Shown here: one piece after another, positions 740 to 49,240 of the stretch
How positions within the stretch are numbered: position 1 is the first letter of the stretch
Layout: each line of letters opens with the position of its first letter
Made by a program: the position numbers and the translations under genes
Assembly (NCBI GenBank): GCA_038225095.1
Contig: JBBREZ010000001.1
Location: forward strand, 1-51,584
Direction of reading: 5' to 3'
Source: Caldilineales bacterium
Lineage (GTDB): Bacteria > Chloroflexota > Anaerolineae > Caldilineales > Caldilineaceae
Length of the DNA: 51,584 bases
The notes under the pieces: model-generated
The model's input: only the letters and a program-made list of their open reading frames with translations
What the model was told of the DNA's origin: nothing
Databases searched by the model: none

Positions 740-3700
740 ATGGTAAGCCCATCGCTTCAAAGGGTAGTGGCTTGGCCTATCAAGCCCGCATTATCTACGT
801 TTTTCTTGCTTCTACTCTGGCTATGCTTTCCCCAATCTGCCCAAGCCAGCACAATCGTCAACTCGTCGATCCCCACCCACACCACGTGGAGCAAGGCGGG
901 TAGCCCCTACCAGATCACGCGTACCGACTTTGCCGTGGAACAGGGCGTGACACTCACCGTCGAGGCTGGCGTCGAGGTGATCGCCGCCGCCAGCGGCAAT
1001 ATCCTGGTTCGCGGCCATCTTGTCGCGCAGGGCAGTGCGCTAGAACCAATTCTTTTTACCAGTGTCAGCAAGACGCCTGGGGCATGGGCTGGCATCAGCG
1101 TAGAGTACGCCAACCAGCAGCCTGGTTCCGCCACGCTCGATTATGTGATTGTTGAGTATGGCGGCGGAACCGTGTTGTCCAATACTGGCAATATTGCAGT
1201 CCACCGCGGGCTGCTCACCCTCCATCATGGCATCATTCGCCATGGTGGTTCAAATGGCATCAGTGGTTTTGTGGAAGCGCCCGTGACGATTGCTGACACC
1301 AGTTTTGTCGGCAATGGCGCAGCGGCTGTGCAATTTTATTCGCTGGTAAGAAGTGACCCGCGCCTGAGCAATCTGAGCGCCAGCGGCAACGGCAAAGACG
1401 CGGTCGTCTATGCCAGTACCGAATTTGATGGGCAGCAAACATGGGAAGATATGGGTTTACCTTATGTCGTTCAGGCCGGGCTGGTGGTCAACCCAACTGG
1501 AAAATTAACCATCGCACCCGGGGTAACGGTACAGGTGGACACTGGATTCTATGTGAATGGTACGCTAATCGCCGTGGGTACGCTTGCTGCGCCCATCACT
1601 ATTAGCGGGTTAAAGCAGGAGCCGGGCAGTTGGTGGGGCATCAATGTAACTAGTAACACTAACGCGCTCGCATCGGCACGCTTTGACTATACCACAATTG
1701 AATATGGTGGCCGCGCGCTAGATGGTGCTGGCAACCTTACAATCGCCTCTGCCACCGTTACAGTCACCAACAGCATGATCCGCTATGGCGGCAGTCATGG
1801 CATCGTTGACCACGGTGGTACACCGGGCGCAGGCCATTCGCTGCGTGTGGATCACACATCGATCCTCAGCAACATGGGGGCGGCCCTGCTCGGCGACGAC
1901 GAGTCGGCCAATCCTGGATTGAGCGACCTGACAATCAACGGCAATGGCACAAATGCGATTGTCCAGCGGGGTGGGTTGCGTGGTGTGCATGTTTGGGAGA
2001 ACGTCGGTGTGCCCTATGTGGTTGAGAATGCTTCGGGCATTAATAGTGGCGGCAGCCTGACTATTGAACCTGGGGTAGAGGTGCGCTTTGCGCAAGATGC
2101 CGGATTCAACGCGGCTGGCAATCTTTTTGCGGTGGGAACGCCAACTCAGCCGATTACTTTCACAGGCACGCAAGCGCAACCTGGCTGGTGGCAAGGGATT
2201 GATAACGCCCATTTTCAACAATCATCAATGAGCGTCGTGGACCTCGGCTACTGCGACATTGGCTATGCTGGCGATGCCAATCTGGAAAGAGCCCAAGTGG
2301 AGATTTCGTCGAGCACAGTCTTTATCCAAAATTGCCGGATTCACGATAGCGCAAGCGCGGCGATTCATGTGCGTGGCAATGTCCAACCGCTGATCGCCTA
2401 CAACCGGATAGAGAACAATGCGGTTGGACTAAAACACTTTCAGGTGGGCTCGAACACGGTCAATGTCGATGCGCGCAACAATTGGTGGGGCGACGCCAGC
2501 GGCCCCACTCATGCCAGCAATCCAACCGGCAAGGGCAACCCAATAAGTGACTTCGTACTCTTCGCGCCCTGGCTCACCAGCCCGGTTGTGGCGGGCGAAG
2601 CCCAGACGTTAGTCGTGCGCCTGGCTGGACCGGGGCGCTTTGTGCCCGGGTCGACCGAGGAATATGAGGTCCTCTACGCCAACTTGACCAACCAACCGAT
2701 CGAAAATGCCGTCATGCGCGTGGCGTTGCCTAATTTTGGCGATTATCTGGACAGCACTGGTAGTGGCATCTTCTGGCCCCAGCGCCAGCAGCTTTTCTGG
2801 AAGCTAGGTACGCTGGCGCGCGGCGCGCGCGGTGTGCTCTCCTTTCGCGTGCGTTTTAATTGGGGCGTGGCACTCGGGTCAAAATCGACCGCTGTAGCGC
2901 AACTCGGCGGCACCAATCTCAGCCCAGCCGCCTTTGATATCGCCGCCTATCTAGCCTTTACGCCGCAAACGTTGCTCTCGGCCACCGAACTGTCTACAGC
3001 GCAAGTGCAGGCTGAACGCGATGCCTACCCGGAACTGAATCAGTTGCTCACCACGGCGCTTGGCAAGGGGTATCGATTCGCGCACGCGACCCTGCGCAAT
3101 TACAGCGGTGATGTCACACTGACGCGCCTGGTGCTGGTGCGCCTTCAGCCGCAGTTTTCCGCCTATTTTGTTTGGCGGCAGAATGCAACCACTGTCGCCA
3201 TGCAGGTGGATGGTTCATCGGTTACAGTGGAACACAATGGGCTGGCTTTGCAATACGACCGCCAAAGTGGAAGCTGGAATGAGATCGTCGCCGTCAAGGC
3301 AGCTGGCATCAGTTATGCGGAGTGCATGCGCCAGTGCATTGCCGAAAAACTGCCTGGCGAACTGATTGAACAAGTGATCAAAGTGGTGGGCGTTACCAAG
3401 AAAGCGATCGGCTGTGTCCAAGCGATCGCTGGCAACGACGAGGCCGTGTTGGAATGTGCCAAAGTGTTGGAGAAGGCGATTCCCGGTGTGGATATCGGCA
3501 TTGAACTGGGGCTGTGTAATGCGGATTGTCAGCAGTGCAATGGCGACTGTGATGATCCCCGTTGTCACTGTTGCAAAGAAGACAAAACGTTCTGCGACAG
3601 CAATGATTGGCTTTATGGACCCTTTGGCATTGGCGTGAAAAAGATCCTACGCTGTTCAATCGCAACCGGACGTTATCTCGCCGCCGAAGTCTACGATGTC

Positions 3701-4903
3701 TGTGCCATCTGTGAAAAGTGTGTGCAGATGCCGGGCGGACCATCCTGCCAACCAAAAAATTCAGCCACGGGGTTGCAAATTAGCGCCTCAACCGCCTGGT
3801 CAGCGTTGGCGGCAGGCGACAGCGACCTGACCTGTGACGAGTGCCGCAGTGCCAAAGACCCCAACGAGAAATTCGGCCCCAAGGGTGATCTGCTGCCCGG
3901 TCAGCTTGTCACCTACACCATCACCTACGAGAATGAAGGGACGGGTGATGCTTTCGATGTCTTTATCGTCGATCCGTTGAGCGAATACTTCGATTTGAAC
4001 ACGCTGAACATCGCTGGCAACGCGACCTTTGCTAGCGCCAACCGCACCATCTACTGGTTGGTGGGTGACTTGAAGCCCAAAGGTCAACTCGGTTCCAGCG
4101 GTGTAGTCTCCTTCACTGTGCGCTTGAAGCCAGGGTTACCCAGCAATACAGTCGTCAGCAACCAGGCGGTCGTACACTTCCCCAGCGTGCCCGAAGAGAC
4201 GCCAACCAACAAGGTGATCAACATTGTCCAACCGCTGGTGGCGACGCCGCAACAGCTAACCACCACAGCCGGTCAGCCAGTGGCAATTACACTCCACGGG
4301 CAAGATGTAAGTGGGACACCGTTGAGCTATGCCATCGTCGAGGCGCCTCTCTACGGACAATTCAGTGGAACGCCGCCTGCGCTCATCTACACGCCGCAAA
4401 GCAATTTCAGTGGCCTCGACCGCATCGCCTTCACCGTCAGCAATGGTACATCCACGAGCCGAACCACCGATGTGACCATCCTTGTGCAACCCTCGGCTGC
4501 CGACAAGACACCACCCACCGTGCTTTGGACTGCGCCAGCCCACAACCAAACGTTGACTTTGCTTGATACGACGCCGATCCCCGGTGGAGGGGGACCCTAC
4601 TATGCACCATTGATTCAGGTGCAGTTCTCCGAGCCGCTGGACGCCGCCACGATCACGACTGATACCATACGAATCACCAGTGCCGATGGGCACTTGATAG
4701 CCGCGAGGGTGCAATTTGACGGCGCGCTCGACCAAGCGTATCTTGTGTTGCGTGAGCCGTTACATACAGGCGCAAGCTATACCATCGTTGTGGCGCCTGC
4801 CATCAAAGATGCCAGCGGCAATCTACTCGCTGCCGAAAATCGCTCAACCTTCCAAGTGGGTAGCGTGAATCGGCCGCTCTTCCTGCCGTTCATTTGGCGC
4901 TGA
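740..4903 (+). CDS. Giant secreted multidomain protein (1387 aa): signal peptide, right-handed beta-helix (PbH1-like) repeats, Cys-rich module, DUF11-type repeat domain, Ig-like/cadherin-like domains
   Basis: SD aaaggagga lies 5 nt upstream of the ATG. The N-terminus (LLLLLWLCFPQSAQAS) looks like a signal peptide. There are repeated G-x-I-x-[VI]/N-x-[GA] beta-helix-like units. DPNEKFGPKG..VTYTITYENEGTGDAFDVFIVDPL is typical of DUF11 'conserved repeat domain'. The C-terminal ...DKTPPTVLWTAP...IRITSADG... is Ig-like (SbsA-type). Confidence 0.85.
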   Translation: MVSPSLQRVVAWPIKPALSTFFLLLLWLCFPQSAQASTIVNSSIPTHTTWSKAGSPYQITRTDFAVEQGVTLTVEAGVEVIAAASGNILVRGHLVAQGSALEPILFTSVSKTPGAWAGISVEYANQQPGSATLDYVIVEYGGGTVLSNTGNIAVHRGLLTLHHGIIRHGGSNGISGFVEAPVTIADTSFVGNGAAAVQFYSLVRSDPRLSNLSASGNGKDAVVYASTEFDGQQTWEDMGLPYVVQAGLVVNPTGKLTIAPGVTVQVDTGFYVNGTLIAVGTLAAPITISGLKQEPGSWWGINVTSNTNALASARFDYTTIEYGGRALDGAGNLTIASATVTVTNSMIRYGGSHGIVDHGGTPGAGHSLRVDHTSILSNMGAALLGDDESANPGLSDLTINGNGTNAIVQRGGLRGVHVWENVGVPYVVENASGINSGGSLTIEPGVEVRFAQDAGFNAAGNLFAVGTPTQPITFTGTQAQPGWWQGIDNAHFQQSSMSVVDLGYCDIGYAGDANLERAQVEISSSTVFIQNCRIHDSASAAIHVRGNVQPLIAYNRIENNAVGLKHFQVGSNTVNVDARNNWWGDASGPTHASNPTGKGNPISDFVLFAPWLTSPVVAGEAQTLVVRLAGPGRFVPGSTEEYEVLYANLTNQPIENAVMRVALPNFGDYLDSTGSGIFWPQRQQLFWKLGTLARGARGVLSFRVRFNWGVALGSKSTAVAQLGGTNLSPAAFDIAAYLAFTPQTLLSATELSTAQVQAERDAYPELNQLLTTALGKGYRFAHATLRNYSGDVTLTRLVLVRLQPQFSAYFVWRQNATTVAMQVDGSSVTVEHNGLALQYDRQSGSWNEIVAVKAAGISYAECMRQCIAEKLPGELIEQVIKVVGVTKKAIGCVQAIAGNDEAVLECAKVLEKAIPGVDIGIELGLCNADCQQCNGDCDDPRCHCCKEDKTFCDSNDWLYGPFGIGVKKILRCSIATGRYLAAEVYDVCAICEKCVQMPGGPSCQPKNSATGLQISASTAWSALAAGDSDLTCDECRSAKDPNEKFGPKGDLLPGQLVTYTITYENEGTGDAFDVFIVDPLSEYFDLNTLNIAGNATFASANRTIYWLVGDLKPKGQLGSSGVVSFTVRLKPGLPSNTVVSNQAVVHFPSVPEETPTNKVINIVQPLVATPQQLTTTAGQPVAITLHGQDVSGTPLSYAIVEAPLYGQFSGTPPALIYTPQSNFSGLDRIAFTVSNGTSTSRTTDVTILVQPSAADKTPPTVLWTAPAHNQTLTLLDTTPIPGGGGPYYAPLIQVQFSEPLDAATITTDTIRITSADGHLIAARVQFDGALDQAYLVLREPLHTGASYTIVVAPAIKDASGNLLAAENRSTFQVGSVNRPLFLPFIWR

Positions 4904-6245: not shown

Positions 6246-6276
6246 AATATTCCTTGAATTAAAATCAAAAAGAATA

Positions 6277-6480
6277 AGTAATAGGTAATAAGTAATAGGT
6301 AATTGTGAACGTTCGGGATACATCCTCGCCTCATGTAAGACCGGGAATCATGCAACTACCATTACAAATTACTTGTTACTTAGTCACGTTACGCAGTCTG
6401 CCAGAGGTAGGGCCACGATATATCGTGGCTGTACGGACGAGCGTCTGCGTAACATGAGTTACCTATTACTTATTACTTAT
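6277..6480. repeat. Nested palindromic element between the HMG-CoA reductase and synthase genes
   Basis: The outer arms are aagtaataggtaataagtaataggtaat (6277-6305) and its complement acctattacttattacttatt (6450-6472). They enclose a 64-nt element (6389-6452) that has ttacgcag...ctgcgtaa termini and an inner hairpin ccacgatatatcgtgg. Confidence 0.85.
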
Positions 6481-7822
6481 TTTCTAGCAGTTGCATCGCC
6501 CGTTCCACACGAATCTGCCCCTCACTCACCAACTGTGCCGCAACGCGATCAACGTCTATCCCCTGCACACCCGCGGCAATTGCCACTTGTCGCGCATGCA
6601 GCGCCATATGCCCGCGCTGAATCCCGTCTGTCGTTAAAGCGCGTAGGGCAGCAAGATTCTGCGCCAACCCGACCGCGGCCATCACTTCACTTAGTTCACG
6701 CGCGCTCCGTATGCCCAGAATCTTCAACGCTATCTGCGCCATTGGGTGCGCACGCGTGGCGCCGCCGACAATACCGACAGCAAGGGGCAGTTCGAGACGA
6801 CCGTAGAGAAATGCGGAGTGCGGAGTGCAGAGTGCGGAGTAGGAATTGTCTCTATCTCCCTGTCTCCCTGTCTCCCTGTCCCCTCTTGTCTCCCATACTG
6901 TCAGCGCCCGATACTGCCCATCGCGTGCCGCATAAGCATGCGCGCCAGCCTCAATGGCACGCCAATCATTACCGGTGGCGAGCGCGACTGCATCGATGCC
7001 ATTGAGGATGCCTTTATTATGGGTAGCGGCCCGATAAGGGTCAGCCACGGCAAAGGCATTGGCATGGGCAATATTTTCAATTACTTCCACCCCATCATGA
7101 TCGCCGCTGACAAAGCTCTGCGCCGGGATGGTCACTTCGGCCCAGGCGCGCCGGTGATCGGTCAGGTTACTGAGAATGCGTAATAAGGCGCGGCCACCGC
7201 TTAGCCGTTCCAGCACAGGTGCAATCGTCTCAGCCGCCGTGTTGATGGCATTGGCGCCCATCGCATCGCGCGTATCAAAGAGCAGATGCACAATCAGCAT
7301 AGGCACGGTGGGTGTCTGCGGAAGTTGCCGCACTTCAATATCAACCGGACCACCGCCCTGTTTAGCAATCGTGGGGCTAGTATTGGCCAACGCGAGCAAG
7401 GTGGCTTTCTCGGCCAGAATCGCCGCAGTTGCCTGAGCGGGATCCAACACATCTAGCAATTGAATTTGCGCGATCATTACCGGTGCTGTGCTGCCCGTGA
7501 TAAACCCACCGCCCGCGCGTGCTAACTTGGCCGCAAAACTCACTGCGGCGACGATCGACGGTTCTTCAACCACCATTGGCACGAGATAATCACGCTGGTT
7601 GATTAAAAAGTTTACGCCAATCCCCAGCGGCAGACTGTAACGTCCCACCGCATTTTCAATCATCTTATCGGCCTGTGCGGTGGACAAATTGTCGTCTAAA
7701 ACCGCTATCTCAGCGGGGGTTAGCTTCGCCCAAGCCGCGACCAAGGCAACGCGTTCGGCCACGCTTTTTTGATAAAAACCGCTCAGGCGCGAAGAACGCA
7801 GTTCTGTGCCAGGCTCGTTCAT
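6473..7822 (-). CDS. mvaA: HMG-CoA reductase, class II (NAD(P)H-dependent, bacterial type), carrying an extra internal segment
   Basis: SRLSGFYQKSV..ERV, VEEPS[IV]VAA, DAMGAN, ATGNDWRA, GIVGGAT..HP, LAALRAL..DGIQRGHMALHAR are class II HMGR hallmarks. The ATG at 7822 has SD gaggg 6 nt upstream; a GTG at 7825 is an alternative start. Confidence 0.9.
   Translation of the reverse strand: MNEPGTELRSSRLSGFYQKSVAERVALVAAWAKLTPAEIAVLDDNLSTAQADKMIENAVGRYSLPLGIGVNFLINQRDYLVPMVVEEPSIVAAVSFAAKLARAGGGFITGSTAPVMIAQIQLLDVLDPAQATAAILAEKATLLALANTSPTIAKQGGGPVDIEVRQLPQTPTVPMLIVHLLFDTRDAMGANAINTAAETIAPVLERLSGGRALLRILSNLTDHRRAWAEVTIPAQSFVSGDHDGVEVIENIAHANAFAVADPYRAATHNKGILNGIDAVALATGNDWRAIEAGAHAYAARDGQYRALTVWETRGDRETGRQGDRDNSYSALCTPHSAFLYGRLELPLAVGIVGGATRAHPMAQIALKILGIRSARELSEVMAAVGLAQNLAALRALTTDGIQRGHMALHARQVAIAAGVQGIDVDRVAAQLVSEGQIRVERAMQLLENK
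6812..6894. repeat. 'Word' repeat block lying inside the HMG-CoA reductase coding sequence, in frame
   Basis: tgcggagtgcggagtgcagagtgcggagt (gcggagt heptamers), then an 8-nt spacer, then tctctatctccctgtctccctgtctccctgtcccctcttgtctccc (gtctccct octamers). The same words form intergenic palindromes at 47830-47900, 46850-46885 and 49169-49222. Confidence 0.85.
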
Positions 7823-7968
7823 CACAATCCCTCTACGAATTCCCAGTAGTTACAATTTGGGCAGAGTTGTAAACCGTCTCTGCTTTAGTAAAGGTAGCAT
7901 AAGGAAACTGTCAGGATCTATCAGAGTTAAAAATGGAAGAATTTGAGAGGAAGTCTTGTGGCAATAGA

Positions 7969-15213: not shown

Positions 15214-15280
15214 GTAGGCTGGGTTCGCCGCGCCACCGGTGCGTGTAACCGCTCATCATGCTGCGGCGAACCCAGCCTAC
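15214..15280. repeat. REP-like hairpin with GTAGG...CCTAC termini
   Basis: Perfect 18-bp arms gtaggctgggttcgccgc / gcggcgaacccagcctac with a 31-nt loop. It is preceded by ctcacgttacgcag, the same head seen at 6384-6396. Confidence 0.9.
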
Positions 15281-32548: not shown

Positions 32549-32616
32549 GTAGGGGCGAGGCATGACCACCTTCAATTGGGAAGCCTCTTGATCTGCTGGT
32601 CATGCCTCGCCCCTAC
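32549..32616. repeat. REP-like hairpin with GTAGG...CCTAC termini (terminator position)
   Basis: Perfect 20-bp arms gtaggggcgaggcatgacca / tggtcatgcctcgcccctac with a 28-nt loop, starting 4 nt after the fasciclin stop codon. Confidence 0.9.
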
Positions 32617-42121: not shown

Positions 42122-42237
42122 GACGGTCTGAAAAGACTTCGTAGGTGCGGTTTGTAACCGCACAATCAGGGGGTGACCGAGAACGTGCGGTTACAAACCG
42201 CACCTACGAAGTCCTTGATCCACCCTTTTCAGACCGT
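42122..42237. repeat. REP-like hairpin (GTAGG...CCTAC, 23-bp perfect arms) nested within a longer imperfect palindrome
   Basis: The inner arms gtaggtgcggtttgtaaccgcac (42141-42163) and gtgcggttacaaaccgcacctac (42185-42207) are exact complements. The outer acggtctgaaaag..gacttc pairs with gaagtc..cttttcagaccgt. Confidence 0.9.
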
Positions 42238-45526: not shown

Positions 45527-45573
45527 ACAGTCGCTTGACGGGCTGATTACTCAATGTCGTTAAGCGTAAAACA

Positions 45574-45778
45574 GGAGATTAGAGATTAGGAGATTAAGGC
45601 CATTTCAATGAAATAAGTATCCAGTGTTTGCCGAACAAAATCATTCGTAGGTGCGTGCTTTTAGCCGCACGGTCTGCGTATACCCCAATTTTGCGGCTAA
45701 AAGCACGCACCTACAGGATACTTTATTCTTTGATTGCGCCTAAGAGATAAAGAACGATCAATCTCCTAATCTCTAATC
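45574..45778. repeat. ~205-bp composite nested palindrome between the binding-protein and permease genes
   Basis: The outer arms ggagattagagattaggagatt / aatctcctaatctctaatc are of word type. The middle arms are gaaataagtatcc / ggatactttattc. The inner REP-like hairpin has perfect 23-bp arms gtaggtgcgtgcttttagccgca (45647-45669) / tgcggctaaaagcacgcacctac (45692-45714). Confidence 0.9.
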
Positions 45779-45824
45779 GCTCAATCTCTCCTACTTAACT
45801 TACCCAGCCCGTGTAACGGAGGCA

Positions 45825-46760
45825 GTGGTGGCGAAAAGTTCAGCACAGATCAGGCCAGCCGTCGTCGGGCGACCTATGGTTTACAAGCGAAATTGGTGGG
45901 ACCAGGAAGCAGCGCTCGGCTATTTGTTGATCAGTCCAGCCTTTATCTTTCTCGTCGTTCTGTTGGCCTATCCTTTTGTGATGGCGGTTTATCTCAGCCT
46001 CTCGCGCAAAAGTTTGGGGGCAGACGCGGTCTTTGTCGGGTTCGGTAATTTTGCCAAGTTGGCGGCTTCGGCGCGTTTTTGGCTTACTGTAAAAAACTCC
46101 CTAGTGTATACGACCGGTTCCCTGCTGCTCAAGTTTACCGGTGGCTTGGCGTTGGCCCAACTGCTGAATCGGGCATTCTTCGGCAAACGCATTGTAACCG
46201 CTCTGATTCTGCTGCCATGGATCATTCCCAAGGTCTTCAGCACCTTGGCCTGGTGGTGGATGTTGGACCCGGCGAATAGTATTATCAATGTTCTGTTGAA
46301 GCGCTGGGGGTTGATTACGAATAATCTGCCGTTTTTGGTTGATGCTACTTGGGCGATGATGTCGTTGATCTTTTTGAATATCTGGCGTGGCGTGCCTTTT
46401 TTTGCGATTACCTTTCTAGCCGCAATCCAGACCGTGTCCGAAGAGCTGCTGGAGGCCGCCAAGATGGATGGTGCGGACGCCTGGCAACGCTTTTGGCGCA
46501 TCACCTTTCCGTTGATTGTGCCCGTCGTGATTATTGTCGTGTTGATTTCAACGATCAGCACGCTGTCGGACTTTGAATTGCCCTATTTGTTAACGCAGGG
46601 CGGGCCACGCGACGCAACTTTAGTCTTTGGCCTGTTGAGCTACAATTATGCCTTGAACATTGGTCAACTGGGCATGGGCGCAGCCGTTTCGCTGGCGATG
46701 TTACCCTTGCTGGCAGTGCTCGTGATCTTTTCGTTAATTGAACTACGCCGCCAGCATTAG
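45825..46760 (+). CDS. ABC sugar transporter permease (MalF/UgpA-like)
   Basis: Six TM helices. EAA-type loop EELLEAAKMDGADAWQRFWRITFPL. The start is GTG 45825 or GTG 45828 (SD ggagg). Confidence 0.9.
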   Translation: MVAKSSAQIRPAVVGRPMVYKRNWWDQEAALGYLLISPAFIFLVVLLAYPFVMAVYLSLSRKSLGADAVFVGFGNFAKLAASARFWLTVKNSLVYTTGSLLLKFTGGLALAQLLNRAFFGKRIVTALILLPWIIPKVFSTLAWWWMLDPANSIINVLLKRWGLITNNLPFLVDATWAMMSLIFLNIWRGVPFFAITFLAAIQTVSEELLEAAKMDGADAWQRFWRITFPLIVPVVIIVVLISTISTLSDFELPYLLTQGGPRDATLVFGLLSYNYALNIGQLGMGAAVSLAMLPLLAVLVIFSLIELRRQH

Positions 46761-46786
46761 CTTGGCCTGGGCTAGTAAAGATTAAA

Positions 46787-46885
46787 TCTACCTATTTAGG
46801 CGTAGCGCTGCACAGGTAGATAGGTAGACGCCCATCAGTAGATGGGACGTAAACAGGGAGACAGGGCGTACTCTCTATCTACACA
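46787..46885. repeat. Word-type repeats (tctacctat/ataggtaga; cccatc/gatggg; gggagacaggg) between the two permease genes
   Basis: Inverted pair 46787-46795 / 46820-46828. A second small hairpin lies at about 46830-46848. The gtctccct-family word lies at 46853-46866. Confidence 0.75.
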
Positions 46886-46972
46886 AGGGCTGAACAGTTG
46901 CGATTAAATTTATATGGCCGCTATGTGTAGTTATTAGACTTATCACCATTCGCAGAGCAACCGTGAGGTTCT

Positions 46973-47824
46973 ATGAAACAACGAACATGGCAGCGTTATT
47001 TAAGTCGCTTACTGTTGCCCTATTTGCCGCTGGCGTTGATCCTGTTCATTTTACTCTTTCCTTTCTATTGGATGGTCTTAACCTCTTTCAAGTCGATGAA
47101 AGAAATTTTTGACTACACGCATAGTCCGCTCTGGTTGCATACGCCGATTCTGGATAATTACCTGTTTTTGTTTCAAACCGCGACGTTCGGGCGTTGGTCG
47201 GCGAACAGTATTTTCACCGCGGTGGTTACAACGGCGTTTTCACTAATCGTCTCGATTGCCGCCGGCTATGCGATTGCCCGCTTACGTTTTCGCGGGGCCA
47301 CGCTCGCTGGCATCATCATTTTTATTACCTATCTGGTGCCCAAGACCCTGTTATTCATTCCGCTGGCCCAGTTTTTGCGGCAGATTCATCTGCTAGGCGA
47401 CTTGTCGGCGTTGATGCTCGTCTACCCAACCTTTCTGATTCCGTTTTGCGCCTGGCTATTGACCGGTTATTTTCGCACCGTGCCGATTGAGCCAGAAGAA
47501 TGCGCCATGATCGACGGCTGTAGCCGCTTGGGTGCAGCGATCCGGATCACGTTGCCGATGGCCGCACCAGGTGTGCTGACCGCCGGGATCTTTGCGTTTA
47601 CCCTGTCTTGGAACGAGTTGCTCTATGCCTTGGTCTTTGTCAGCGGCGAGGCCAACAAGACATTGCCGGTCGGTTTAATCAACAGCCTGGCCCAACGTGA
47701 TTTCTTCAATTGGGGGCCGCTGATGGCCGGGGCAACCCTGGGTTCGATCCCAGTGACGTTGGTTTATTTATTCTTCATGGATCTCTATGTGGGCGGTCTG
47801 ACCACAGGGGCCGTGAAGGGATGA
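46973..47824 (+). CDS. ABC sugar transporter permease (MalG/UgpE-like)
   Basis: Six TM helices. EAA loop EPEECAMIDGCSRLGAAIRITLPM. Confidence 0.9.
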   Translation: MKQRTWQRYLSRLLLPYLPLALILFILLFPFYWMVLTSFKSMKEIFDYTHSPLWLHTPILDNYLFLFQTATFGRWSANSIFTAVVTTAFSLIVSIAAGYAIARLRFRGATLAGIIIFITYLVPKTLLFIPLAQFLRQIHLLGDLSALMLVYPTFLIPFCAWLLTGYFRTVPIEPEECAMIDGCSRLGAAIRITLPMAAPGVLTAGIFAFTLSWNELLYALVFVSGEANKTLPVGLINSLAQRDFFNWGPLMAGATLGSIPVTLVYLFFMDLYVGGLTTGAVKG

Positions 47825-47829
47825 AACAA

Positions 47830-47900
47830 GTGCGGAATGCGGAGTGCGGAGTGCGGAATGAACCAACACTCTGCATTCCGTATTCTTCACTCCGCATTCA
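47830..47900. repeat. Imperfect palindrome built on gcggagt/gcggaat heptamers
   Basis: gtgcggaatgcggagtgcggagtgcggaatg (47830-47860) against cattccgtattcttcactccgcattc (47875-47900). The same words occur inside mvaA at 6812-6840. Confidence 0.85.
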
Positions 47901-47920
47901 TAAAGTACGGAGATTGTTGC

Positions 47921-48985
47921 ATGCAGGATTGGTATCATCTAGAAAAAGCGCGGGTTGTGCGGTTGAATGCCGTTTTGAACCCGAACCAATATGAAGCGGC
48001 GCTATTTCACCAATATCATCTCAACCCCGTCCATGTGGAAGCAGCGACGCCGGCAGAGTTGATTGCAGTATTAGAAGATTGCGACGCGCTTTTTGCTGTC
48101 TCGGTGAAGTTACCGACGCCCGTGATTGAGAGCCTGAAGCACTGTAAGGTCATCTCACGCCTGGGCACGGGCACCGATAAGATCGACGTAGCCACCGCGA
48201 CAAGCCGCGGGATTGTCGTGACGAATGTACCGTATTTCTGCGTGGAGGAACAAGCGGATCATGCGATGGCGTTGTTGCTGGCGCTGGAGCGCAAGTTGCC
48301 GCAAATGGATGCAGCCACGCGCGCCGGGGAATGGAACCGTGCGCGCTACCAATCCCATCCGAATCGTCGGCTTTCCGTGCTCACGCTGGGCCTGATCGGG
48401 TTTGGCAATTCAGCGCGCGAAACAGCGCGGCGCGCCATAGCCTTTGGAATGCGCGTGCTGGCCACGCGGCGTAACATGAGCGCATCCCACGCCGAGGCGG
48501 ATGCGTTGGGTGTCGAGATGGTGGATTTGGACACTGTGTTGCGCGAATCTGACTACGTGTCACTGCATTTGCCATTGGAGAAGGAAACCTTCCACTTATT
48601 AGACGAGGCAGCACTGCGCAAAATGAAACCCTCGGCCTATCTGATCAACACGGCGCGCGGCGCGATTGTGGATGAAATGGCGTTGGTCGACTTGTTGCGC
48701 GCCAACGTGATTGCAGGGGCAGGGCTCGATACTTTCGAGCACATTGATGTTTTTATCCCCGATGGGCCACCACCGCCGCACCCGCTGTTGCAGCTTGACA
48801 ACGTGATTCTGACGCCGCATGTGGCCGCGATGTCGATTCAGGCGGCGCAGGATGTCGCGCGCGGGGGTGTCGAAAACATGGTTTCTATTCTCAGCGGTCA
48901 TTGGCCGATTTCAGAAAATATTGTTAACCGCGGGGTCAAACCCTGGTTCCCCTTACACGAATATGATCCGACGCTGTTGAAATAG
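47921..48985 (+). CDS. D-isomer-specific 2-hydroxyacid dehydrogenase family protein
   Basis: NAD-binding GLIGFGNSARETARRA, INTARG, and catalytic ...TPHVAA... . I chose the ATG at 47921 because the ORF-track start at 47837 lies inside the repeat. Confidence 0.85.
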   Translation: MQDWYHLEKARVVRLNAVLNPNQYEAALFHQYHLNPVHVEAATPAELIAVLEDCDALFAVSVKLPTPVIESLKHCKVISRLGTGTDKIDVATATSRGIVVTNVPYFCVEEQADHAMALLLALERKLPQMDAATRAGEWNRARYQSHPNRRLSVLTLGLIGFGNSARETARRAIAFGMRVLATRRNMSASHAEADALGVEMVDLDTVLRESDYVSLHLPLEKETFHLLDEAALRKMKPSAYLINTARGAIVDEMALVDLLRANVIAGAGLDTFEHIDVFIPDGPPPPHPLLQLDNVILTPHVAAMSIQAAQDVARGGVENMVSILSGHWPISENIVNRGVKPWFPLHEYDPTLLK

Positions 48986-48995
48986 CTATACCAAA

Positions 48996-49124
48996 ATCAG
49001 AATGAAAGCGGACCCCCTCCTAACCCTCTCCTTACGAGGGGAGGAACTGTTGCTTCGTCTACCCCTGATCAGTCCCCTCCCTTACCAGGGGAGGGCTAGG
49101 GTGGGGTCCGCTTTTCGTTCTGAC
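48996..49124. repeat. Nested palindrome (outer aaagcggacccc / ggggtccgcttt, two inner hairpins), terminator-like
   Basis: gcggacccc (49008-49016) pairs with ggggtccgc (49103-49111) and is followed by ttttcg. The inner hairpins are cctctcc-ttacga-ggggagg and tcccctccc-ttacca-ggggaggg. Confidence 0.85.
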
Positions 49125-49168
49125 ATCAGTATACTTGTAGATTAGACATTAGTCGGATTAACAAAGAT

Positions 49169-49240
49169 GGGAGACAGGGGAAACAGGTATACAGGTGATG
49201 TCTACCTGTTTCCTTGTCTCCCAGTGGTAAATGCTTATTC
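49169..49240. repeat. Inverted copy of the dispersed element seen at 12461-12539
   Basis: The palindrome is gggagacagg...ccttgtctccc around caggtatacaggtgatgtctacctg. The 17-mer at 49224-49240 and the 19-mer at 49191-49209 are shared with the 12.5-kb locus. Confidence 0.9.

What the first reader, a model, noticed from the sequence alone, without database searches (positions are those of the whole stretch)
6812..6894. Intergenic-type 'word' repeat inserted in frame inside the HMG-CoA reductase gene
Positions 6812-6894 consist of four gcggagt-type heptamers, an 8-nt spacer, and several gtctccct-type octamers. The same words build the arms of intergenic palindromes at 47830-47900, 46853-46866 and 49169-49222. 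Here they lie inside mvaA and are translated on the minus strand as ..WE-TRGDRETGRQGDRDNSYSALCTPHSAF-LYGRLELPLAVG... As I recall class II reductases such as the Pseudomonas mevalonii enzyme, only about 8 residues separate the conserved W-E and the G-x-L-E-x-P motif. Here there are about 29. That means ~20 extra codons with no stop and no frameshift. Unlike the intergenic copies, the two word blocks are not complementary to each other. A repeat or mobile element has therefore apparently colonised an essential isoprenoid-pathway gene and is tolerated as a surface loop. Alternatively the gene is impaired, or the segment is excised in some way.
Basis: partly seen in the sequence, partly recalled or inferred. 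Interest (0 to 1): 0.65.

Follow-up and report, generated by a model that had tools for sequence, protein, structure and literature searches.

The report
Repeat words translated inside HMGR gene
Two short runs of 7- and 8-letter repeat "words", of the kind that fills this bacterium's intergenic spacers, sit in frame inside a working HMG-CoA reductase gene and are read as a floppy loop; related bacteria carry different words in the same loop, so it is a tolerated passenger at a permissive hot spot, not a broken gene.

Summary
Window 6812-6894 holds (TGCGGAG)x4.1, a 7-nt spacer and about five GTCTCCCT-type octamers. Both words recur elsewhere in the window far beyond chance. The block lies in frame in a class II HMG-CoA reductase (6473-7825, minus strand) of a Caldilineaceae bacterium.

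It lengthens the stretch between W-E and G-x-L-E-x-P from 8 residues in the Pseudomonas mevalonii enzyme to 29. AlphaFold places it as a disordered turn of a beta-hairpin. The gene is intact and under strong purifying selection (dN/dS 0.04-0.09). The insert is present unchanged in contigs of three independent metagenome runs.

The main new result is that this loop is a clade-wide hot spot. It has a fixed 9 residues in outgroups and 14-39 residues in the window's clade. There it carries different 7/8-nt word arrays in different lineages, some of them complete hairpins.

The same behaviour appears in Mfd of related Caldilineaceae genomes. It also appears in IleRS, ValRS, kinases and ATPases on unrelated metagenome contigs that carry the identical (GCGGAGT)n array.

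This is best filed as a new member of the dispersed heptanucleotide-repeat class. It behaves like the in-frame palindromic elements of Rickettsia. How the words spread between loci remains unknown.

The parts
6473..7825 (-). Class II (NAD-type) HMG-CoA reductase CDS, 450 codons, host of the insert
   Evidence: ORF list. TIGR00532 scores 379.8 bits against a cutoff of 259.95. PDB 6dio and 1qax match at E about 1e-125. The AF2 model matches the PmHMGR fold with TMt 0.80-0.89. dN/dS is 0.035-0.09.
6803..6892 (-). Loop codons E311-Y340 (ETRGDRETGRQGDRDNSYSALCTPHSAFLY), between the W310 codon (6893-6895) and G341
   Evidence: Translation. The PDB alignment gap falls here. AF2 gives pLDDT below 50 for residues 316-334, flanked by strands 308-313 and 338-346.
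6812..6840 (-). Heptamer array, (ACTCCGC)x4 on the coding strand, read as YSALCTPHSA
   Evidence: TRF period 7, 4.1 copies. The word recurs at 47832-47859. Word depth is 666-908 here against about 5 in the flanks in four metagenomes.
6841..6847 (-). 7-nt spacer (AGGAATT on the + strand) between the two arrays
6848..6894 (-). Octamer array, (AGGGAGAC)-type x about 5 on the coding strand, read as (W)ETRGDRETGRQGDRD. The host codons TGG-GAG-AC form its first unit. It contains the G-quadruplex-type motif GGGGACAGGGAGACAGGGAGACAGGG.
   Evidence: TRF period 8, 4.8 copies. The word recurs at 46856, 49169 and 49212. Motif found.
47830..47899 (.). Intergenic hairpin built from the same heptamer word (GCGGAAT GCGGAGT GCGGAGT GCGGAAT / complement), between an ABC permease gene and a 2-hydroxyacid dehydrogenase gene
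   Evidence: pair I8, 85% complementary; -42.2 kcal/mol, z -9.3
49169..49222 (.). Intergenic hairpin whose outer arm units are the octamer word (GGGAGACAGG ... CTTGTCTCCC)
   Evidence: (-37.7 kcal/mol, z -6.0)
46853..46866 (.). Solo 14-nt copy of the octamer word (ACAGGGAGACAGGG) in an intergenic spacer
6459..6481 (.). (TTACTTA)x3 array covering the last two sense codons (N, K) and the stop codon of the reductase. It pairs with (AATAAGT)x4 at 6273-6303 across a 155-nt segment.
   Evidence: pair I9, 96% complementary

Best explanation
The block is a translated passenger. Two short tandem arrays, (AGGGAGAC)x~5 followed by (ACTCCGC)x4 on the coding strand, occupy the turn of a beta-hairpin between W310 and L339. 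The host is a functional class II HMG-CoA reductase of a Caldilineaceae bacterium.

The arrays belong to a dispersed class of 7-8-nt 'word' repeats, that is, heptanucleotide or STRR-like repeats. In this genome they fill intergenic spacers, alone or as inverted pairs that form hairpins.

Proposed sequence of events:
(a) An array or hairpin is copied into, or seeded at, many places. This step is inferred and the enzyme is unknown.
(b) Inside genes, only copies survive that keep the frame, use words without stop codons, and fall in structurally permissive loops or linkers. This selective filter creates 'hot spots' such as this loop. The loop has 9 residues in outgroups and 14-39 in this clade, with different words in different lineages.
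(c) Once in place, the array is kept regular by replication slippage or gene conversion. A change in one unit spreads to all units, so orthologous arrays differ by whole-word changes in register.
(d) The peptide is a disordered hydrophilic loop with no required role.

What is shown: the anatomy, in-frame translation as inferred from frame conservation, placement in the loop, purifying selection on the enzyme, the hot spot, word sharing within genomes, and the same behaviour in other proteins. What is inferred: how the words spread, and slippage as the homogenising process.
For: Anatomy and recurrence. Real DNA in three runs. Loop placement: PDB gap; AF2 pLDDT below 50 at residues 316-334, between two strands; fold match.

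Function retained: dN/dS is 0.035-0.09 outside the loop. The motif residues that align with the P. mevalonii catalytic motifs (VEEPS, HNKG, GNDW, RGHM) are invariant.

Hot spot: among 120 homologues the loop is hypervariable. In 85 loci, 23 outgroups have exactly 9 residues, a sponge-associated clade has 12, and the window's clade has 14-39. The loop DNA holds arrays of different words. WIN, L081 and L082 have ACTCCGC; L084 has AAATCCA; L085 has AAATCGA; L024 has CGCAACA; L035 has ATCCAAT. L002, L004 and L016 hold full hairpins, with fold z-scores of -5.5 (L004) and -6.6 (L016).

Turnover: dS between WIN and its nearest relatives is 1.15-1.8, yet the WIN heptamer array has 1 mismatch in 28 nt. 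Each unit is read in a different frame, so protein-level selection cannot maintain periodicity in the DNA.

Same genome, same words: pairs of arrays at least 300 nt apart share a word in 4 of 27 cases within loci, against 28 of 1021 between loci (Fisher p = 0.0077). L024 uses CGCAACA both in the reductase loop and in the Mfd linker 2.5 kb away.

Filter on words: of the window's words, only the two found in the gene are stop-free in all three frames of both strands.

Generality: Mfd of L006, L011, L014 and L024 carries in-frame arrays. The exact (GCGGAGT)x3 array lies in frame inside Pfam-confirmed Pkinase, peptidase U32, AMP-binding, PutA, ValRS, IleRS, P-type ATPase, MutL and ABC-F proteins on metagenome contigs. 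In a verrucomicrobial IleRS, one loop of constant length carries five different words among 85-92% identical orthologues. One of these arrays keeps an old-word unit at its edge.
Against: No act of insertion was caught. No near-identical strain lacking the block was found, and contigs cannot show rare variants. There are no terminal inverted repeats, target-site duplications or conserved flanks around 125 arrays. No transposase-like gene lies in the 51 kb.

The first octamer unit overlaps the host codons W-E-T (TGGGAGAC). A local origin of that array therefore cannot be excluded.

Composition-matched control heptamers are as frequent as GCGGAGT in viral contigs: 16 and 17 loci against 14. The wide occurrence of this word may thus reflect a general abundance of heptamer arrays, not spread of one element.

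There are no RNA or protein data, so translation is inferred from frame conservation. Solvent exposure of the loop rests on a model of moderate confidence (mean pLDDT 77).
Confidence: 0.72

Rival explanations
1. Purely local birth. The arrays arose in place from host codons by duplication and slippage in a mutation-tolerant loop. No sequence was transferred from or to other loci. The resemblance to intergenic words reflects a genome-wide mutational bias.
For: The octamer array starts exactly at the host W-E-T codons TGGGAGAC. Words change in register at orthologous positions, with old-word units surviving at the edges. This is typical of in-place concerted evolution. No transposition hallmarks were found. 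Arbitrary control heptamer arrays are equally common in viral contigs.
Against: Identical 11-14-nt word strings recur at 2-3 other loci within 51 kb, against about 0.4 expected. Word sharing within a genome is about 6-fold enriched. Complete two-armed hairpins sit in the same loop in L002, L004 and L016, and simple slippage does not make inverted repeats.
Confidence: 0.17
2. The insert is functional. One option is that the loop peptide has a role in regulation, interaction or solubility. The other is that the mRNA element modulates translation through a G-quadruplex or through GGAG/CUCC Shine-Dalgarno-like and anti-Shine-Dalgarno-like words.
For: The coding strand carries the canonical motif GGGGACAGGGAGACAGGGAGACAGGG. 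An expanded loop has persisted throughout the clade. A published heptamer family shows a four-unit preference that its authors link to quadruplex formation (PMC4692102).
Against: The loop sequence, length and words are not conserved even among 80-85% identical orthologues. Some relatives have 14-16 residues and outgroups have 9. AF2 predicts disorder. GCGGAGT arrays show the same peak at 4-5 units although the word has no GGG tracts.
Confidence: 0.06
3. Phase-variation switch. Gain or loss of one 7- or 8-nt unit shifts the frame and turns the reductase off and on.
For: The unit lengths are not multiples of three. Heptanucleotide contingency loci exist in other bacteria (for example Haemophilus, PMC8262952).
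Against: Contigs from three runs are identical across the block. There are only 4-5 units. All 85 loci and 120 homologues have intact frames. The reductase gene lies next to the HMG-CoA synthase gene.
Confidence: 0.03
4. Artefact or decay. The block is an assembly chimera at a repeat, or the gene is a pseudogene.
For: The heptamer k-mers are extremely abundant in the source metagenomes, at depth 666-908. Such abundance can mislead assemblers.
Against: Independent contigs in three runs span the block and both flanks with 0 differences. The reading frame and protein family continue on both sides. dN/dS is about 0.05.
Confidence: 0.02

Closest known systems
[quoted passage not shown] 2000, Science 290:347, as summarised in PMC10969869)
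   Same: A repeated element that is otherwise dispersed in the genome is found in frame inside unrelated housekeeping genes. It is translated and is compatible with the fold and function of the host protein.
   Different: RPEs are about 100-150 bp and form sequence-defined families restricted to Rickettsia. Here the units are arrays of about 28-47 nt made of 7-8-nt words. The words differ between lineages, and one loop is reused repeatedly. The window's copy is not palindromic (z -1.6).
Dispersed heptanucleotide repeats: GGGAATC in Xanthomonas and GGGGA(C/T)T in Nostoc (Rehm et al. 2015, PMC4692102); STRR of heterocystous cyanobacteria (Mazel et al. 1990, from memory)
   Same: Both have 7-nt units in short tandem arrays scattered over the genome and mostly intergenic. 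A minority lie inside genes: 7-11% in Xanthomonas and about a third in Nostoc. The published families prefer four units; the GCGGAGT arrays peak at 4-5 units. L016 carries the Nostoc word GGGGA(C/T)T itself in the reductase loop.
   Different: The phylum (Chloroflexota) and the words differ. Octamer words occur alongside heptamers. GCGGAGT has no G3 tracts, so the four-unit preference here cannot be explained by classical quadruplex formation. Hot-spot reuse and in-register word change have not been described, to my knowledge.
STRR inside the RNase P RNA gene of heterocyst-forming cyanobacteria (Vioque 1997, Nucleic Acids Res 25:3471; title seen in the reference list of PMC2858038)
   Same: Heptamer arrays are tolerated inside an essential gene.
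   Different: The host there is a structural RNA, not a protein-coding frame. I could not read that paper.
REP / REPIN elements mobilised by RAYT transposases (PMC3116915), and MITEs
   Same: Both are short, highly repeated, hairpin-forming intergenic DNA with non-autonomous spread.
   Different: REPs are unique-sequence palindromes, not tandem words. MITEs have terminal inverted repeats and target duplications. Neither feature was found around 125 arrays, and no RAYT-like gene lies in the window. The window does hold separate GTAG-type palindromes.
Small dispersed repeats (SDR) of Nostoc punctiforme (Elhai et al. 2008, Genome Res 18:1484; cited in PMC3116915 and PMC5861425; not held in the library)
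   Same: Very small repeated elements. From my memory of the paper they are associated with tandem heptamer repeats and hairpins and are proposed to be mobile without known machinery.
   Different: SDRs are 21-27-nt unique sequences that insert into such contexts. I could not check the details.

Membership tests
Class II HMG-CoA reductase (host gene) | Family model above the curated cutoff, and the class II fold | tested here: met
   TIGR00532 scores 379.8 bits against a cutoff of 259.95. PF00368 is precomputed for this protein. Foldseek TMt is 0.80-0.89 to PmHMGR and the Delftia enzyme.
Class II HMG-CoA reductase (host gene) | Catalytic Glu, Lys, Asp and His (E83, K267, D283, H381 of P. mevalonii; numbering from memory) | tested here: met
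   The motifs VEEPS, THNKG, GNDWRA and QRGHMALH align with 1qax. E86/E87, K270, D286 and H405 are invariant in 40 sequences.
Dispersed heptanucleotide (STRR-like) repeats | Tandem units of 7 nt, a few copies per site | tested here: met
   Period 7 with 4.1 copies at 6812-6840. The neighbouring array has period 8, so it is a variant.
Dispersed heptanucleotide (STRR-like) repeats | The same word at many unlinked sites, mostly intergenic | tested here: met
   There is a second site at 47832-47859. Pairs of arrays sharing a word are enriched within loci. At least 120 metagenome contigs hold the exact 21-mer. A whole-genome count is not possible from 51 kb.
Dispersed heptanucleotide (STRR-like) repeats | Preferred array length of about four units (Rehm 2015) | tested here: met
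   In 125 arrays the unit counts are 3:7, 4:54, 5:43, 6:10 and more than 6:11. The sample required three perfect units.
Rickettsia palindromic elements | In-frame, stop-free insertion in a conserved gene at a site compatible with the fold | tested here: met
Rickettsia palindromic elements | Palindromic element of about 100-150 bp that belongs to an RPE sequence family | tested here: not met
   The block is 83 nt of two non-complementary arrays (z -1.6). Its word structure is unrelated to unique-sequence elements. It works like an RPE but is not a member.
MITE | Terminal inverted repeats and target-site duplication | tested here: not met
   No conserved flanks or duplications were found around 125 arrays. 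Of 133 arrays, 113 have no inverted partner within 150 nt.
REP/REPIN-RAYT system | REP doublets plus a cognate RAYT (Y1 transposase) gene in the genome | not testable with these tools
   No such gene was found among 30 window ORFs scanned with Pfam. The rest of the genome is not available.
Phase-variable contingency locus | Unit-number polymorphism within populations that switches the frame | tested here: inconclusive
   Contigs of three runs are identical, but contigs drop rare variants.

The most novel reading that the evidence does not exclude
Short 7-8-nt word arrays may be a self-propagating kind of DNA with no transposon hallmarks. In this reading they are written or copied to a set length of about four units by an unrecognised, widely distributed process. 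That process acts in Chloroflexota, Verrucomicrobiota and Cyanobacteria alike. It revisits existing arrays, so that orthologous sites swap whole words in register. Housekeeping proteins then record this activity in their permissive loops.
Probability: 0.15. Interest if true: 0.8.

Novelty: new member of a known kind. Interest (0 to 1): 0.5.

Why it matters
Three points.

1. Heptanucleotide-type word repeats, known mainly from cyanobacteria and xanthomonads, also pervade Caldilineaceae. There they enter conserved enzymes as translated loops. Length differences of tens of residues between 80-90% identical orthologues can therefore be repeat passengers rather than functional domains. This is relevant to annotation, to alignment-based phylogeny and to structure prediction.

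2. Orthologous hot loops offer a natural time series for a question that, to my knowledge, is still open: how such arrays arise, keep their regularity and change words. Examples are HMG-CoA reductase and Mfd in Caldilineaceae, and IleRS in a verrucomicrobial lineage.

3. The peak at 4-5 units in a word without G3 tracts argues against the quadruplex explanation of that preference.

For the enzyme itself the finding is benign. Nothing suggests altered chemistry.

Tried and rejected
- RNA evidence. The look-up of sequencing runs returned only DNA (metagenome) runs. Retention in mRNA could not be checked.
- Presence/absence polymorphism. Contigs of X1-X3 all carry the block, and X4 had no contig across it.
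- Excision or intein/intron ideas. These were rejected because the segment is only 63 extra nt, has no such features, and is always frame-preserving across lineages.
- A special 'cosmopolitan word' idea. This was weakened by a control. Two permuted heptamers of the same composition were as frequent as GCGGAGT in viral contigs: 16 and 17 loci against 14.
- Transposon hallmarks. None were found.
- Candidate mobilising enzymes in the window. None were found among 30 ORFs.
- The 1387-aa ORF at 740-4903. I suspected it was Mfd, but its translation does not look like Mfd: it reads as a large secreted-type protein with an N-terminal hydrophobic segment (no family search was run on it). It shows no arrays.
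- Literature. No paper holds the word strings or their peptides. Elhai 2008 and Vioque 1997 are not held. A search for Caldilineaceae repeats returned nothing relevant among the 8 papers listed.
- Position of the loop relative to the active site or dimer interface. This could not be measured because model coordinates are not exposed.
Full report
1. WHAT IS IN THE SEQUENCE

Window 6812-6894 reads (T)GCGGAGT GCGGAGT GCAGAGT GCGGAGT, then AGGAATT, then GTCTCTAT CTCCCTGT CTCCCTGT CTCCCTGT CCCCTCTT GTCTCCC. Tandem Repeats Finder calls both arrays: period 7 with 4.1 copies, and period 8 with 4.8 copies.

Both words recur elsewhere in the window well beyond chance. There are 6 matches against 0.40 expected for the heptamer pair, and 5 against 0.43 expected for GGGAGACAGGG. 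The other copies are:
- a strong intergenic hairpin at 47835-47899 (z -9.3);
- a hairpin at 49169-49222 (z -6.0);
- a solo 14-mer at 46853-46866.

The two blocks inside the gene are not significantly complementary to each other (z -1.6).

2. THE HOST GENE

ORF 6473-7825(-) is a class II HMG-CoA reductase. It scores 379.8 bits against TIGR00532, and PDB entries 6dio and 1qax match at E about 1e-125. An archaeal-type HMG-CoA synthase lies next to it. The closest homologues are from Caldilineaceae and other Chloroflexota MAGs, the best at 84% identity.

The solved enzymes have a gap of 18-21 residues exactly where the block lies. P. mevalonii has WE-KDNNGHLV-G; the window has WE-TRGDRETGRQGDRDNSYSALCTPHSAFLY-G.

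AlphaFold2, run with a 40-sequence alignment, gives the class II fold with TMt 0.80-0.89 to PmHMGR. It puts residues 316-334 at pLDDT below 50, between strands 308-313 and 338-346. This is an extended turn of a beta-hairpin in the large domain, not the C-terminal flap.

The block is real DNA. Contigs from three independent runs span it with no difference. Outside the loop, dN/dS against seven relatives is 0.035-0.09, and the catalytic motifs are invariant. The gene is therefore intact and under selection.

3. THE LOOP IS A HOT SPOT

In 120 homologues the segment between L-T-x-W and G-R-L-E-L-P is hypervariable in length and sequence. Many versions have the 7-8-residue periodicity of translated word arrays.

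In 85 loci placed on a tree built with the loop masked:
- 23 outgroups (Anaerolineae, Promineifilaceae and others) have exactly 9 residues;
- a sponge-associated Caldilineaceae clade has 12;
- the window's clade has 14-39 residues of unrelated sequence.

At the DNA level the loops hold arrays of different words:
- ACTCCGC in WIN, L081 and L082;
- AAATCCA in L084 and AAATCGA in L085;
- CGCAACA in L024 and ATCCAAT in L035;
- GATCCCA-type in L009 and L017;
- complete two-armed hairpins in L002, L004 (z -5.5) and L016 (-71 kcal/mol, z -6.6).

The window's nearest relatives share its two-array layout: octamers right after the Trp codon, a spacer, then heptamers abutting L-Y-G. L001 keeps only decayed remnants.

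Synonymous divergence among these genes is saturated or nearly so (dS 1.15-3.1). Yet the window's heptamer array has one mismatch in 28 nt. Successive units are read in different frames, so selection on the protein cannot preserve periodicity in the DNA. A DNA-level process must therefore keep renewing the arrays. Slippage, conversion or replacement are the candidates.

4. IT IS NOT SPECIAL TO THIS GENE

In 753 kb of related loci, 23 of 39 strict arrays lie inside long stop-free frames. Besides the reductase loops, these include the Mfd/TRCF genes of L006, L011, L014 and L024. In L006, L014 and L024 an array sits in the linker between the helicase and TRCF domains, again with different words. 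L024 uses the same word, CGCAACA, in both genes 2.5 kb apart.

Arrays at least 300 nt apart in one locus share a word 4 times in 27. Between loci the figure is 28 in 1021 (p = 0.0077).

Of the words in the window, only the two found inside the gene are free of stop codons in all frames of both strands. This fits a selective filter.

Ten cases were checked with Pfam. All lie in frame inside bona fide proteins: Ser/Thr kinase, peptidase U32, acyl-CoA synthetase-type enzyme, PutA, ValRS, IleRS, two P-type ATPases, MutL and an ABC-F protein.

The IleRS belongs to a Verrucomicrobiales-like lineage. Among its 85-92% identical orthologues, one loop of constant length (11 residues) reads in five ways:
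- SALRTPHSALD;
- SAIRNPQSALD;
- SEIGNRKSEIA;
- ELKTQNSKLP;
- STLNSQPSTDS.

These correspond to five heptamer words that differ by whole-word changes in register. The second still ends in an old-word unit. That is the signature of concerted evolution in place, and it parallels the reductase loop.

Array length peaks at 4-5 units: 97 of 125 arrays.

5. CAUTIONS

- A control weakens any claim that GCGGAGT is a special, travelling word. Two permuted heptamers of the same composition are as frequent in viral contigs: 16 and 17 loci against 14.
- The very high k-mer depth of the heptamer block in four metagenomes (666-908 against about 5) shows abundance. It does not show which genomes hold the copies.
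- No insertion event, target duplication, conserved flank or mobilising gene was seen.
- The first octamer unit overlaps host codons. A local origin for that array is therefore possible.
- There are no RNA or protein data.

6. COMPARISON WITH WHAT IS KNOWN

In behaviour this is closest to the Rickettsia palindromic elements, which are repeats translated in frame inside housekeeping genes (PMC10969869). It is not a member of that family, since its size, sequence and structure all differ.

In kind it belongs with the dispersed heptanucleotide repeats. Those described for Xanthomonas and Nostoc have a four-unit preference and a minority of copies inside genes (PMC4692102). The cyanobacterial STRR are of the same kind, and they are known even inside the RNase P RNA gene (Vioque 1997, cited in PMC2858038). 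L016 carries the Nostoc word GGGGA(C/T)T itself.

I found no description of such repeats in Caldilineaceae, of hot-loop reuse, or of in-register word change. The library is incomplete, however.

7. VERDICT

It is one stage of a long-lived, clade-wide hot spot and not a single recent colonisation, and mobility is unproven. I file it as a new member of a known kind, of moderate interest. The mechanism of word spread and length control is the open and potentially interesting part.

Noticed in passing
window 6273-6481: The spacer between the HMG-CoA synthase and reductase genes is a nested palindromic element. Word arms (AATAAGT)x4 at 6273-6303 and (TTACTTA)x3 at 6459-6481 are 96% complementary and flank 155 nt that contain a further palindrome (6384-6457). 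The right arm supplies the last two codons and the stop codon of the reductase. The left arm inflates the synthase ORF with a spurious N-terminal extension (..ITYYLLLI..).
   Followed up: partly
window 6848-6885, minus (coding) strand: The octamer array gives a canonical G-quadruplex-type motif, GGGGACAGGGAGACAGGGAGACAGGG, on the mRNA-sense strand. The two arrays also present repeated GGAG (Shine-Dalgarno-like) and CUCC (anti-Shine-Dalgarno-like) tetramers. These account for the weak pairing seen in the fold.
   Followed up: no
window 45570-49230: The spacers around an ABC-transporter operon and the gene that follows it each hold word hairpins or word copies. The genes are a solute-binding protein, two permeases and a 2-hydroxyacid dehydrogenase. 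At 45577-45595 and 45760-45778, perfect word arms flank 164 nt with an inner perfect palindrome (45647-45714).
   Followed up: partly
window 42132-42216, 45647-45714, 32549-32616, 15214-15280: A second, different repeat class is present. These are near-perfect unique-sequence palindromes whose arms begin GTAGG and end CCTAC. They resemble the 'GTAG-tagged' REP superfamily (title of PMC3733652). No RAYT-like gene was seen in the window.
   Followed up: no
L016:4900-5010 (Litorilinea aerophila MAG): The reductase loop holds a complete hairpin of -71 kcal/mol, built from GGGGA(C/T)T and its complement. This is the same heptamer word family reported as highly enriched in Nostoc (PMC4692102). It lies in frame in the middle of the gene.
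   Followed up: partly
L138 and proteins P0121-P0240 (Verrucomicrobiales-like IleRS): Orthologues 85-92% identical range from 825 to 999 residues; several of the shortest may be partial. They have several insertion hot spots. Besides heptamer-word peptides, some hold peptides typical of translated GC-rich hairpins (for example SEGRVPRVPESEANLGTRGTRPSD and VGQASRL...). The ValRS on L108 has a similar GQASRLPQ...RRDACPT insert.
   Followed up: partly
window 6795-6840 in runs X1-X4: The assembler word depth of the GCGGAGT array is 666-908, against about 5 for the flanking gene, in soil, sediment and aquatic metagenomes. The octamer block reaches only 3.5-23. Many contigs with unrelated flanks end at 6808 or 6840.
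   Followed up: partly
L004 (contig JAWKOU010000001.1): One Caldilineaceae MAG that carries a full in-frame hairpin in the reductase loop is represented by a single contig of 14.3 Mb. This is unusually large for the group.
   Followed up: no
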